The notes under the pieces: generated by a model | What the model saw: the letters and a program-made list of their open reading frames with translations, nothing else | Told to the model about the DNA's origin: nothing | Databases searched by the model: none | Shown here: positions 43,336-47,606 of the stretch, one piece after another | How positions within the stretch are numbered: the stretch's first letter is position 1 | Layout: every line of letters starts with the position of its first letter | Made by a program: the position numbers and the translations under genes | Origin: the human T2T-CHM13v2.0 reference genome, Homo sapiens | DNA length: 64,000 nt | Assembly: GCF_009914755.1 (NCBI RefSeq) | Contig: NC_060936.1 | Strand: one strand, 5' to 3'

Positions 43336-43972
43336 TACACATATATAGTTCTAATATTAGAAAAATTATGTATATGTATTTCATATAGCATGTGTGGGTC
43401 TTGGCCAGAAACAGAATGTGGAATATAATTGTGCCAAAGCATAAAGTTCTTTATATGTAATATATAGACCTTTAAGTTCTGATGTGGTCTGCCCCCTGGC
43501 CAAGTGGTACAAAAGGCATTGATCTGGTAGATTTCTTACCCTCACAGGTCTGAGTTGACCAACCAACCAATTACAGATGTGTCTTCAGGAGGGAACAGGG
43601 AGAAACTAGAGCATTAGATCCATTCACTTGCATCCAAATCCTATGTATATTGGCTGCCTGTTTGGAAATCATTTCAAATGAAAGCAACCTTGAACTGGCT
43701 CTGAGTCATTACTCTAGACAGACTCTAGAGAGAGAGAGAGAACATTTCAGCATTTCAATAGAACCCACAGTAGGAGACATTGTGTGGCTACAGGAAAGTC
43801 TTGTTTGGGCTTAGTAGGTGATAAGATACGCAGTTTGACCATAGATATTGGCATATATACAAGATATAGTGGTTGGAAAGAATGAACAAGTAATGCAGGT
43901 TAGGTCCAAATCATCAAGGACCTTGATTGCTGGGCTATGGAGTTTGAGTTTGATTTTGTAAGTTCTGGGAAA

Positions 43973-45043
43973 CTACTGAAAGTTAAACCATTTGTCAAAG
44001 CAATAAAGGTCCCCTATGAATGAACCTCAAAATCTGTTTGTAAATTCACAGCACATAACTTCCTTATAAAAACACTTGTACATTCTCTTAGATCCAGACA
44101 TATCATACTACCATTTGCCTCTTCCTCAGACATGCCGTGCCATTTTTACTCCTATTGCCTTTCCATTGTTTATTCTGTTCGGAATCGTAGTTCCCATTTC
44201 CTTTACCAAATCTTACTTATCCCAAAATCCCCAACCTAAGTGCTACTTCCATGATCTTACTCTAAATCAGAAATTGCTCTTTTCCTGTCCTACAACTGAT
44301 TTCTTTCTGTTTGATTTAGTTGTTCTATGTGGGGATAGTACTGGGAGATTGACCCCACAGAAATTCTCAAGTCCCTCCTTTTCTCTTGCCATTTCCCACA
44401 AGACGGGTTGGAAAAACTAAGTACTCATTTCTGCAGCCTTCCTTACAGCTAGGTGTGGTCACATAGCACAGTTCTGAGATGTCTGCAAGGAACTTAATAG
44501 GAAAGCTTATGTTTCCTTATAAGAAAGACATGCAGTAGAAGGGAACTCTTTGTCTCTTTCCCCTTCCTTCCTTAAACACTGACATGATGCTTAGAGATGT
44601 GCAGCTATTTTACAACCATGAAGTAGAAAGTACAAAGCCAGAAGGCACATGCAAAGGATAGACAAGTAAAGGGATGGGACATTGTTGAACTACTGCATCT
44701 ACTCAGGACTGCTCATGTGTAGACTTCTTATATGTGAGAAGTTAAAATTATTTATTGCATCATCCTCTTAACTGAATTTGTTGGTTTTTGCTGCTGAATG
44801 CATTTCTAATAAATGTAATCTACTTGCCCACCTTTTAAAAAAATGCATTATTAAGAACTATAGTCATCATGTCATACAATAGATAGCTTGAACTTATTCC
44901 TCTTCACGAAATTTTGTATCTCCTAACCAATATCTTCTCCCCCCACCCCACCAGATACAATGTACTTGTCCATTTTTACCACTGGATTCTAAATTTTAGT
45001 TCAGTATATTTTAAATTCCTTGATGGAAAGTTTTAAGTATCTT
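43973..45043 (+). repeat. Direct repeat copy 1 (1071 bp) flanking the MER11 LTR
   Basis: CTACTGAAAGTT...TTTTAAGTATCTT aligns end to end with 46080-47147. Contains an MLT1-like LTR (~44328-44818) and L2/L1M pieces. Confidence 0.97.
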
Positions 45044-45046
45044 ACA

Positions 45047-46079
45047 GACCGGCTGAAGCCATGGCAGAAGAACATAAATTGTGAAGATTTCATGGACATT
45101 TATTAGTTACCCAAATTAACACTTTTATAATTTCTTACGCCTGTCTTTACTGCAATCTCTGAACATAATTTGTGAAGATTTCATGGACATTTATCACTTC
45201 CCCAATCAATACTCTTGTGATTTCCTATGCCTGTCTTTACTTTAATCTCTTAATCCCATCATCTTCATAAGCTGAGGATGTATGTCACCTCAGGACTCTG
45301 TGATGATTGCGTTAACTGCACAAATTGTTTAAACAATATCAAATCTGGGCACCTTAAGAAGAGGATAACAGCGATTTTCAGGGAACAAAGGAGATAACCT
45401 TAAAGTCTGGCTGCCTGTGGGCTGGGCAGGACAGAGCCATATTTCTCTTATTACTGAAAACGGGTAAGAGAAGTATTGCTGAATTCTTTCCCCAGTAAGG
45501 AATACTAATAATTAGCAGCCCTGGGAAAAGAATGCATTCCCAGGGGAGGCCTCTGAAATGGCCACCCTGGGAGTGTCTGCTTTTATGCAGATGTAGATAG
45601 GGATGAAACACACCCTACTCTCCTGCAGCACCCCCAGGCTTGCTAGGATTAGGAAATTCCAGCCTGGCAAATTCTAGTCAGACTGGTTCTCTGCTCTTGA
45701 ACTCTTTTAAGATGTTTATCAATGACAATGCGTGCACAGTGGGACATGGAAGTTCATTAGTGATTCTAGTTGCCCTGAACTTGTGATCTTGCCCTGCTCA
45801 TCTGCCTTGTGATCTTTTGTTGCCCTTAAAGCATGTGATCTCTGTGACCCACACCCTATTTGTACACTCCCTCCCCTCTGAAAATTGCTAATAAAAACTT
45901 GCTGGTTTTACAGCTCAGGGGGCATCACAGAACCTGCTGACATGTGATGTCTCCCTTGGACACCCAGCTTTAAAATTTCTCTCTTTTGTACTCTCTCCCT
46001 TTATTTCTCAGACTGGCCAACACTTAGGGCAAATAGGAAAGGACTCACGTTGAATTATCGGAGGCAGTTTCCCCTGATA
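45047..46079 (+). mobile_element. MER11 (MER11B/C-like; HERV-K11-type) solo LTR, 5' end truncated
   Basis: GACCGGCTGAAGCCATGGCAGAAGAACATAAATTGTGAAGATTTCATGGACATT (block repeated at ~45161), AATAAA at ~45890, ends TTCCCCTGATA. Lacks the TGTTGCGGGAAGTCAGGG... start. Confidence 0.95.
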
Positions 46080-47147
46080 CTACTGAAAGTTAGACCATTT
46101 GTCAAAGCAATAAAGGTCCTCTATGAATGAATCTCAAAATCTCTTTATAAATTCAGAGCACATAACTTCCTTATAAGCACACTTGTACATTCTCTTAGAT
46201 CCAGACATATCATACTACCATTTGCCTCTTCCTCAGACATGCCGTGCCATTTTTACCCCTATTGCCTTTCCATTGTTTATTCTGTTCAGAATTGTAGTTC
46301 CCAATTCCTTTAACAAATCTTACTTATCCTAAAATCCCCAACCTAAGTGCTACTTCCATGATCTTCTTACTCTAAATCAGAAATTGCTCTTTTCCTGTCC
46401 TACAACTGATTTCTTTCTGTTTGATTTAGTTGTTCTATGTGGAGATAGTATAGGGAGATTGACCCCACAGAAATTCTCAAGTCCCTTCTTTTCTCTTGCC
46501 ATTTCCCGCCAGAAGGGTTGGAAAAACTACTCATTTCTGCAGCCTTCCTTACAGCTAGGTGTGGTCACATGGCACAGTTCTGAGATGTCTGCAAGGAACT
46601 TAATAGGAAAGCTTATGTTTCCTTATAAAAAAGACAGGCAGTAGAAGGGAGCTCTTTGTCTCTTTCCCCTTCCTTCCTTAAACACTGACATGATGCTTAG
46701 AGATGTGCAGCTTTTGCAACCATGAGGTAGAAAGTACAAAGCCAGAAGGCAAATGCAAAGGATGGAGAAGTAAAGGGATGGGACATTGTTGAACTACTGC
46801 ATCTACTCAGGATTGCTCATGTGTAGATTTCTTATATGTGAGAAGTTAAAATTATTCATTGTGTTAGCCTCTTAACTGAATTTGTTGGTTTTTGCTGCTG
46901 AATGCATTTCTAATAAATGTAATCTACTTGCCCATCTTTTAAAAATATGCATTATTAAGAACTATAGTCATTATGTCGTACAGTAGATAGCTTGAACTTA
47001 TTCCTCTTCACTAAATTCTATATCTTCTAACCAATATCTTCTCCCACCACCCCACCAGATACAATGTACTTGTCCATTTTTACCACTGGATTCTAAATTT
47101 AAGTTCAGTATATTTTAAATTCCTTGATGGAAAGTTTTAAGTATCTT
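46080..47147 (+). repeat. Direct repeat copy 2 (1068 bp) flanking the MER11 LTR
   Basis: About 95-96% identical to copy 1 (hand count: ~25 substitutions and 2 indels over the first ~580 bp). Confidence 0.97.
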
Positions 47148-47432
47148 CATCTTTGTATTTATTTTTTGTTGATGAACTTTGAATACAGATCCTCAATAAA
47201 TGCTAAATTGATTGAATATTGTTTCATCTATCAATACGAACAATTCAAATAAAAGTGTGAGAGAGAAACTAAACATGACCACTAAATAAACATTATGTAA
47301 AGTCGTACTTTTAAAAACGATATTCTGTGAAACATTTCTTTTAGATTTTAACTTTTCCCTTGTTGATATATTATCTAATTTTGGACAAAGGTGAGCTCAG
47401 AATGTTGCTGAGCCAGTTTCCACCTTATTTAG

Positions 47433-47606
47433 ATGGACTTCGAAATGGAAAGCATATTAGCAATTTGTTTTCATAAGATATCCCACAAGGAAAGAATAAA
47501 CAATCACCAGCAGTCATGTAAATACAGTGGGACTTTTCTAGTGACGTCATCATGTTTCACTATTTATCACTCCTCATTTGGACTATTCCCTTATAAATAC
47601 CGCCAG
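47433..47606 (+). other. Candidate 174-nt exon (open in phase 0) in unique sequence
   Basis: TTTCCACCTTATTTAG|ATG ... CAG|GTAAGC; 58 open codons with no recognisable protein homology. Confidence 0.3.
47529..47549 (+). promoter_or_regulatory. Perfect CRE palindrome next to a kappaB-like motif
   Basis: GGGACTTTTC at 47529-47538 and TGACGTCA at 47542-47549; motif match only. Confidence 0.3.

What the first reader, a model, noticed from the sequence alone, without database searches (positions are those of the whole stretch)
43973..47147. MER11 solo LTR flanked by a ~1.07-kb target-site duplication: likely fossil of single-ended retroviral integration
Seen: host segment A (43973-45043), 3 nt ACA, LTR (45047-46079), then A' (46080-47147); A and A' are ~95-96% identical. 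The LTR 3' end looks complete and abuts A' exactly, while the 5' end lacks roughly 30 bp including the TG terminus. Old L2-like sequence runs continuously into A on the left and out of A' on the right, and no second LTR piece exists upstream, so the empty allele was a single A. Known: betaretrovirus-like integrase makes ~6-bp TSDs; when only one viral end is joined by integrase, host repair of the other end can truncate it and duplicate large host segments; unusually long TSDs have been reported for some HERV-K LTRs. Inference: a germline example at kilobase scale, later reduced to a solo LTR.
Basis: partly seen in the sequence, partly recalled or inferred. Interest (0 to 1): 0.8.

Follow-up and report, generated by a model that had tools for sequence, protein, structure and literature searches.

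The report
Truncated solo LTR with kilobase flanking duplication
An ancient retroviral LTR in a PTPRR intron sits between two copies of the same 1.07-kb stretch of host DNA, which looks like the scar of a faulty integration in which only one viral end was inserted properly, a kind of event already known from cell culture and from a few younger human retroviral insertions.

Summary
A (43973-45043) and A' (46080-47147) are collinear direct repeats, 1020 matches, 49 mismatches and 9 gap columns (95.4%). They flank one 1033-bp LTR (45047-46079) with 3 nt (ACA) at the left junction. All 29 genomic relatives carry a further 32 nt at the 5' end that this copy lacks. Its 3' end stops at the same base as theirs and abuts A' exactly. 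The family normally makes 6-bp target-site duplications. A is single-copy apart from A', and the window holds no other LTR piece. Non-CpG divergence of A/A' (4.1%) is close to that between this LTR and its nearest relatives (4.6-5.6%), so the duplication is about as old as the insertion. Best reading (about 0.68): integrase joined one viral end and host repair joined the other, truncating it and duplicating host DNA. Hughes-lab vector experiments produced such structures, and this explanation is already in print for HML-2 loci with 61-450-bp repeats. This is therefore a longer, older example of a known kind. The decisive test, primate orthologues, could not be run.

The parts
43973..45043 (.). 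Host segment A, left copy of the 1071-bp direct repeat
   Evidence: It is 95.4% identical to A'. The only other near-full-length match in the genome is A'.
45044..45046 (+). Three junction bases, ACA. They are either untemplated filler, or viral bases 26-28 followed by a 4-nt deletion.
   Evidence: These bases match neither A' nor the 3 nt that precede GACC in most relatives. Seven of 29 relatives read ACAGAG at the corresponding place, so a viral origin cannot be excluded.
45047..46079 (+). Solo LTR of the MER11/HML-8 kind. It lacks its first 32 nt (or 25 nt) and its 3' (U5) end is complete.
   Evidence: 29 relatives, 86-91% identical; 77% identity over the full length to the 5' LTR of a provirus listed as HML8/MER11C in PMC10194239.
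45070..45250 (+). Two tandem units of about 91 bp inside the LTR (45070-45160 and 45161-45250)
   Evidence: Twenty of 29 relatives have two units and 9 of 29 have one. This is a family feature and is not part of the rearrangement.
46080..47147 (.). Host segment A', right copy of the direct repeat. It starts at the first base after the LTR terminus.
44785..44953 (.). Old dispersed repeat inside A (its copy in A' lies at about 46890-47058). It lies wholly inside the duplicated unit.
   Evidence: 73-88% matches at many genomic places, confined to positions 813-981 of A.

Best explanation
This is the germline scar of an aberrant, one-ended retroviral integration. [quoted passage not shown] This step is inferred to be integrase-catalysed. 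The left (U3) end was not inserted in concert. It lost 25-32 nt and host repair enzymes joined it to the same chromosome 1071 bp to the right of the first joining point, with 0-3 extra bases. Because the second junction lies to the right of the first, the 1071 bp between them (A) ended up on both sides of the insert, like a giant target-site duplication. Two routes for the host-mediated step fit the anatomy, and both are inferred. In the first (Hughes-lab model), the free viral 3' end primes copying of nearby host DNA and then recombines. In the second, the nick left by the first strand transfer primes strand-displacement synthesis through A, and the product is then end-joined to the viral end. 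LTR-LTR recombination later reduced the provirus to a solo LTR (inferred). It is also possible that only LTR-length DNA was ever inserted.
For: (1) The 3' end is exact. The LTR ends ...CCCCTGATA at 46079, the same terminal base as the relatives, and A' starts at the next base. (2) The 5' end is truncated. All 29 relatives carry 32 further nt, which are absent here and from the whole window (0 matches to a 17-nt core with up to 3 mismatches; no other LTR piece in 64 kb). (3) The family norm is a 6-bp TSD. Of 24 relatives with both ends located, 13 have a 6/6 match and 6 have 5/6. None of the 29 has a non-simple direct repeat abutting both ends. (4) A is single-copy in the genome apart from A', so it is neither a transposon nor the LTR of another element. 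(5) Timing. A/A' non-CpG K2P distance is 0.041 (42/1051), against 0.046-0.056 between this LTR and its five nearest relatives. Half the A/A' p-distance is 0.020 (CI 0.014-0.027), which falls within the terminal branches of the neighbouring LTRs (0.015-0.026). (6) Mismatches are evenly spread (chi-square p=0.40; longest identical run 112 bp, P=0.20), so the similarity is not a recent conversion tract. (7) Precedent. In PMC5041404 (passages read), aberrant proviruses have one normal end, the other end is 'often truncated', and host duplications 'could be hundreds or thousands of bp long'. In PMC4422153 and PMC5488345, HML-2 loci have 61-450-bp flanking repeats.
Against: No outgroup sequence was available, so the single-A empty allele is inferred and not seen. 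This LTR's own terminal branch (0.032 non-CpG) is longer than half the A/A' distance (0.020). That would also fit a duplication younger than the insertion, although the branch includes pre-insertion divergence and the confidence ranges overlap. No microhomology is seen at the aberrant junction, whereas PMC5041404 says there 'usually' is some. With wild-type integrase, aberrant events were 0 of 99 and 0 of 85 in the HIV vector controls, so the per-integration prior is low. The published HML-2 long-repeat loci mostly have both LTR ends intact, so long repeats do not require a one-ended event.
Confidence: 0.68

Rival explanations
1. The integration was normal and a later repair event made the duplication. 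The LTR first inserted at the left edge of A with an ordinary 6-bp duplication (CTACTG). Later a double-strand break at or inside the LTR's first 32 nt was repaired by synthesis. The left end, ending in the left TSD copy, annealed to the identical right TSD copy just beyond the LTR, copied about 1065 nt of A, and was then end-joined (ACA) to the resected LTR.
For: It gives exactly the observed sequence, and the TSD microhomology explains why the repeat starts at the LTR's 3' terminus. Half the A/A' non-CpG distance (0.020) is below this LTR's terminal branch (0.032), as expected if the duplication is younger.
Against: It needs two events, with a break in a 32-nt target and kilobase-long synthesis primed from only 6 nt at 1 kb distance. 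I found no precedent for this in the papers read. The dating difference lies within error, and the neighbouring LTRs have branches of 0.015-0.026.
Confidence: 0.12
2. Both viral ends were inserted by integrase, but uncoupled and 1071 bp apart, as may be the case for HML-2 long-TSD loci with intact ends. The 5' 32 nt were lost afterwards in an unrelated small deletion with insertion of ACA.
For: Published long-repeat HML-2 loci are solo LTRs or proviruses whose repeats abut the element, one of them with 2 nt in between (Table 2 of PMC5488345). This shows that long repeats can occur without truncation.
Against: It needs an extra deletion placed exactly at the junction. A truncated aberrant end is what the one-ended model predicts directly.
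Confidence: 0.1
3. A and A' were already a tandem or segmental duplication. This is the 'pseudo-TSD' idea discussed in PMC5488345. The virus then happened to insert at the junction, and a later deletion removed its 5' end and left TSD.
For: PMC5488345 raises this possibility for long repeats in general. The A/A' distance alone cannot exclude a slightly older duplication.
Against: The intact 3' LTR end would have to fall on the first base of the second copy, a chance of roughly 1 in 1000 for an insertion within the array. No other copy of A exists in the genome. A/A' is not older than the LTR.
Confidence: 0.05

Closest known systems
Aberrant (one-ended) integrations of HIV-1 and ASLV vectors (Hughes laboratory; PMC5041404, passages read)
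   Same: One viral end has a normal junction. The other end is truncated and joined by host enzymes. Host DNA is duplicated at the aberrant end over hundreds to thousands of bp.
   Different: Those are somatic events in cultured cells, provoked by end mutations, integrase inhibitors or integrase mutants. This is an ancient, fixed germline event of a betaretrovirus-like ERV. No microhomology is visible at its aberrant junction, and only a solo LTR remains.
HERV-K(HML-2) loci with unusually long flanking repeats: 7p21.2 250 bp, 6p25.2 111 bp, 16q23.1 61 bp, 21q21.1 450 bp (PMC5488345 and PMC4422153, passages read; both cite Mamedov et al., which I did not see)
   Same: Direct repeats of host DNA far longer than 6 bp abut an LTR or provirus of a HERV-K group. 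PMC4422153 already attributes them to inefficient or aberrant integration.
   Different: This repeat is 1071 bp, more than twice the longest listed there. The family is HML-8/MER11, not HML-2. The event is much older (repeats 4.5% diverged, against 0-3 mismatches there). One viral end is visibly truncated. No pre-integration allele is available.
Ordinary MER11/HML-8 solo LTRs
   Same: Same LTR family and same 3' terminus.
   Different: Ordinary copies start TGTTG and have 6-bp TSDs. This copy lacks its 5' terminus and has a 1071-bp duplication.

Membership tests
MER11 / HERV-K11 (HML-8) LTR | Sequence homology to LTRs of proviruses classified as HML-8 | tested here: met
   The window LTR aligns over bases 4-1036 of the 45044-46079 query (77% identity, 1071 columns) to the 5' LTR of a provirus-sized element at G000:C12, about 84.080-84.088 Mb. 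I equate that element with '12q21.31, MER11C' in the table of PMC10194239. The equation rests on size and approximate position only, so the hg38-to-T2T mapping is an inference.
MER11 / HERV-K11 (HML-8) LTR | Subfamily assignment (MER11A, B or C) against curated consensus sequences | not testable with these tools
   No Dfam or Repbase library is on hand, and I built no consensus. The 77% identity to the copy labelled MER11C, against 86-91% to its own 29 relatives, suggests a different subfamily.
MER11 / HERV-K11 (HML-8) LTR | Complete termini with a 6-bp target-site duplication | tested here: not met
   The relatives meet it (13 of 24 with 6/6, 6 of 24 with 5/6). The window copy lacks its 5' terminus and has a 1071-bp duplication. 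This marks an aberrant member and does not argue against family origin.
One-ended (aberrant) retroviral integration product | One viral end with a normal, exact virus-host junction | tested here: met
   The 3' end stops at the same base as the relatives, and A' begins at the next base.
One-ended (aberrant) retroviral integration product | The other viral end is truncated or carries appended bases | tested here: met
   32 nt are missing with ACA present, or 25 nt are missing with a 4-nt internal deletion.
One-ended (aberrant) retroviral integration product | Large duplication (or deletion) of host DNA at the aberrant end | tested here: met
   A 1071-bp direct repeat abuts both sides.
One-ended (aberrant) retroviral integration product | Short homology at the aberrant junction (stated as 'usually' present in PMC5041404) | tested here: not met
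   No shared bases are seen between the host sequence after A' (CATCTT) and the viral bases at the break. The source does not treat this feature as obligatory.
One-ended (aberrant) retroviral integration product | The pre-integration allele has a single copy of the duplicated host segment | not testable with these tools
   No primate genomes are held. Only the window's own genome could be searched.
Long-TSD HERV-K loci (Mamedov, Kahyo) | Direct host repeats much longer than 6 bp immediately flanking the element | tested here: met
   Three nt intervene on one side; one published case has 2 nt.

The most novel reading that the evidence does not exclude
This is the longest target duplication so far tied to an endogenous retrovirus, at 1071 bp against 450 bp in the papers read. 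It is also the first such locus in which the fossil preserves both signatures of a one-ended event: an integrase-exact end and a truncated, repair-joined end. If so, one-ended integration happened in the primate germline with presumably wild-type virus, not only with crippled vectors. A genome-wide census of 'one exact end, one truncated end, long flanking repeat' could then measure integrase failure rates per ERV family over deep time.
Probability: 0.6. Interest if true: 0.45.

Novelty: new member of a known kind. Interest (0 to 1): 0.4.

Why it matters
The locus shows that the kilobase host duplications seen when integration is disturbed in cell culture also arose naturally and were fixed in the primate germline. 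It extends the published size range of ERV-flanking duplications (61-450 bp for HML-2) to more than 1 kb, and to an older family (HML-8). It also gives a concrete search image for finding more such scars. It does not reveal a new mechanism, and it has no evident effect on PTPRR, where it lies deep in an intron on the strand opposite the gene.

Tried and rejected
(1) L2 continuity across the outer boundaries. Genome searches with 43600-44350 and 46800-47550 found no dispersed repeat crossing 43972/43973 or 47147/47148. The claim is neither confirmed nor refuted at this sensitivity.

(2) Six-frame Pfam scan of the flanks for LINE ORF2 remnants.

(3) Earlier-findings look-up.

(4) A pattern joining the LTR terminus to a recalled lysine-tRNA primer-binding motif. 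It gave 0 exact matches in the genome (after a machine error). The annotated provirus shows a decayed, only partly similar motif after its 5' LTR.

(5) A wider screen of the family for other long flanking repeats. The screen therefore rests on 29 relatives only.

(6) A as the LTR of a composite element. Rejected, because A is single-copy apart from A' and no TSD flanks the whole 43973-47147 unit.

(7) Tandem duplication of [LTR+A] or unequal crossing-over between two LTRs. Rejected, because both predict a second LTR copy and the 64-kb window has none.

(8) Recent gene conversion as the source of A/A' similarity. There is no clustering of mismatches.

(9) Oh et al. 2006 (PMC1317513) is not held. 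I know it only through citations in the papers read.

(10) The searches found no paper on this locus. No paper holds both 'PTPRR' and 'MER11'. No ERV flanking duplication longer than 450 bp appeared in the passages read. Supplementary tables of PMC5488345 and PMC5041404 were not opened and may list more cases.

Full report
**1. The observation.** The repeat finder reports four collinear direct-repeat blocks at 94-97% identity and spacing 2104-2110, covering 43969-44907 and 46076-47011. A local alignment runs 43969-45043 against 46076-47147 with 1020 matches, 49 mismatches and 9 gap columns, which is 95.4%. The first four aligned bases on the A' side (GATA) turn out to be the end of the LTR. 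The global alignment has 48 mismatches in 1065 aligned positions and three indels of 3, 4 and 2 nt.

**2. The insert.** I searched the window's own genome with 45044-46079. The search scored 40 of 2191 first-look candidates, and 29 relatives at 86-91% identity were fetched with flanks.
- All 29 start to align at window base 45047 or a few bases inside it.
- All 29 continue upstream for 32 nt that are similar among themselves, begin TGT or TAT, and are absent from the window copy.
- At the other end the window copy reads ...CCCCTGATA up to 46079, the same terminal base as the relatives. Beyond that base the relatives diverge into unrelated flanks.
- The LTR is therefore complete at its 3' (U5) end and truncated at its 5' (U3) end.
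- The three bases ACA (45044-45046) may be untemplated. Alternatively they are viral bases 26-28, since 7 of 29 relatives read ACAGAG there, followed by a 4-nt deletion. In that case the truncation is 25 nt.
- No other piece of this LTR lies anywhere in the 64-kb window. Only chance-level matches (E of 0.01 or more) were found. A 17-nt core of the missing terminus has 0 matches at up to 3 mismatches.

**3. The family and its norm.** Both ends could be located by script in 24 relatives.
- The 6 nt on either side match 6/6 in 13 and 5/6 in 6. L003 and L005 are two copies of one insertion in a segmental duplication. L016 is followed by proviral sequence, so its comparison is not a valid TSD test.
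- None of the 29 has a direct repeat abutting both ends, apart from two that sit in simple-sequence arrays (L019, L029). Other flank-to-flank matches are scattered dispersed repeats.
- The normal signature is therefore a 6-bp TSD, and the window copy is the single exception among the 30 copies examined.
- For the name, I fetched 80 kb around the hg38 position of a provirus that PMC10194239 lists as HML8 '12q21.31, MER11C' (table passage). A provirus-sized element lies there. Its 5' LTR aligns with the window LTR over its whole length at 77% identity. It has the same 32-nt start and the same ...CCCTGATA end, followed by a decayed primer-binding-like motif.
- The window LTR is thus of the MER11/HML-8 kind. 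Its subfamily is not determined and is probably not the one labelled MER11C. That subfamily's own members are 90-95% identical to the annotated LTR.

**4. What A is.** A has only two near-full-length matches in the genome, itself and A'. A short old dispersed repeat (73-88% matches) occupies positions 813-981 of A and the matching part of A'. A is therefore ordinary intronic DNA and not a mobile element. That the empty site held one A remains an inference from parsimony.

**5. Timing.** I compared copies pairwise and on a tree, without building any consensus.

| Measure | Value |
|---|---|
| A/A' K2P distance, all sites | 0.047 |
| A/A' K2P distance, CpG-containing positions removed | 0.041 (42/1051) |
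| Window LTR to its five nearest relatives (L009, L008, L002, L003, L004), same masking | 0.046-0.056 |
| Window LTR to all 24 aligned relatives, same masking | up to 0.099 |
| Window LTR terminal branch, ML tree on CpG-masked alignment | 0.032 |
| Terminal branches of its neighbours | 0.015-0.026 |
| Half the A/A' p-distance (95% range) | 0.020 (0.014-0.027) |

The duplication is therefore about as old as insertions of this subfamily. It could be somewhat younger than this particular LTR, but the LTR's branch also includes divergence before insertion, and the ranges overlap. The mismatches are evenly spread (chi-square p=0.40; longest identical run 112 bp, P=0.20), so there is no sign of a conversion tract. 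PMC10194239 places most HML8 integrations 43-17 million years ago (passage).

**6. Mechanism.** The right flank of the exact viral end is the first base of A'. The left flank of the damaged viral end is the last base of A. In the ancestral single-copy site the two joining points were therefore 1071 bp apart, in the orientation that duplicates the interval.

This is the structure the Hughes laboratory described for aberrant proviruses. One end is normal. [quoted passage not shown] Their model has the uninserted viral 3' end priming synthesis on nearby host DNA and then recombining, which gives a duplication or a deletion depending on the side.

What is shown here is the anatomy: one exact end, one truncated end, 0-3 extra bases, and an abutting 1071-bp repeat of about the right age. 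What is inferred is that integrase made the exact junction, that host repair made the other, and that a provirus once lay here and collapsed to a solo LTR.

Points against this reading:
- No microhomology is seen at the aberrant junction.
- Wild-type vector controls gave 0 of 99 and 0 of 85 aberrant proviruses.
- The dating leans slightly young.

**7. Rivals.**
- (a) Normal insertion with a CTACTG TSD, then a later break in the first 32 nt repaired by synthesis primed from the TSD microhomology across the LTR. This yields the same sequence. It needs two rare steps, and I give it about 0.12.
- (b) Uncoupled two-ended integrase insertion followed by an unrelated junction deletion, about 0.10.
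- (c) A pre-existing tandem duplication with insertion exactly at its junction, the 'pseudo-TSD' idea of PMC5488345. This requires a coincidence of about 1 in 1000, and I give it about 0.05.
- Tandem duplication of LTR+A and LTR-LTR unequal exchange are excluded, because both predict a second LTR.

**8. Comparison with what is known, and novelty.**
- PMC5488345 lists repeats of 13-450 bp flanking LTR5_Hs elements. The 250-bp and 111-bp cases were validated by pre-integration alleles.
- PMC4422153 states that such repeats 'are likely to be a result of inefficient integration' and links them to the RSV vector experiments.
- The explanation is therefore already in print for the germline. New here are the size (1071 bp), the older family, and the visibly truncated end.
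- Searches found no paper on this locus and none with a longer ERV-flanking duplication. Supplements were not opened.
- I file this as a new member of a known kind, with interest about 0.4.

**9. What is left open.** Primate orthologues (see the decisive steps) would settle the choice between the main reading and rivals (a)-(c). The family-wide frequency rests on 29 relatives only, because further genome DNA could not be fetched.

Noticed in passing
L002-L030; window 46077-46079: LTRs of this family begin TG (TGTTG...) but end ...GATA or ...AATA. The U5 terminus reads TA and not the canonical retroviral CA. This holds in all 24 copies whose 3' end the script located, and in the window copy.
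   Followed up: no
window 45070-45250; L002-L030: The LTR holds a tandem pair of units of about 91 bp (85% identical). Twenty of 29 relatives have two units and 9 of 29 have one, and the one-unit copies form their own clade in the tree.
   Followed up: partly
L040:9472-L041:541 (+) and L041:6720-7788 (-): At the locus taken to be the annotated HML8 provirus 12q21.31, two LTRs 95% identical to each other lie 6.2 kb apart in inverted orientation. This is not the direct orientation expected of a provirus, and it suggests an inversion or two separate elements.
   Followed up: no
L003 (G000:C7:145.05 Mb, +) and L005 (G000:C7:144.91 Mb, -): These two LTR copies have identical flanks and TSD (CTAAAG) and tree branches of 0.002-0.003. 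They are one insertion copied by an inverted segmental duplication about 147 kb apart.
   Followed up: no
L016 (G000:C11:6.13 Mb) and L041:6700-6720: The sequence just after the LTR end (TC, then TGGCACCC...CATGG) is shared by L016 and the annotated provirus. L016 is therefore a 5' LTR with a decayed primer-binding site and not a solo LTR.
   Followed up: no
window 45047-46079: The LTR lies on the + strand, antisense to PTPRR (minus strand), deep in an intron. NCBI's masking covers only 45045-45456 and 45800-46026, so the middle of the LTR is left unmasked.
   Followed up: no
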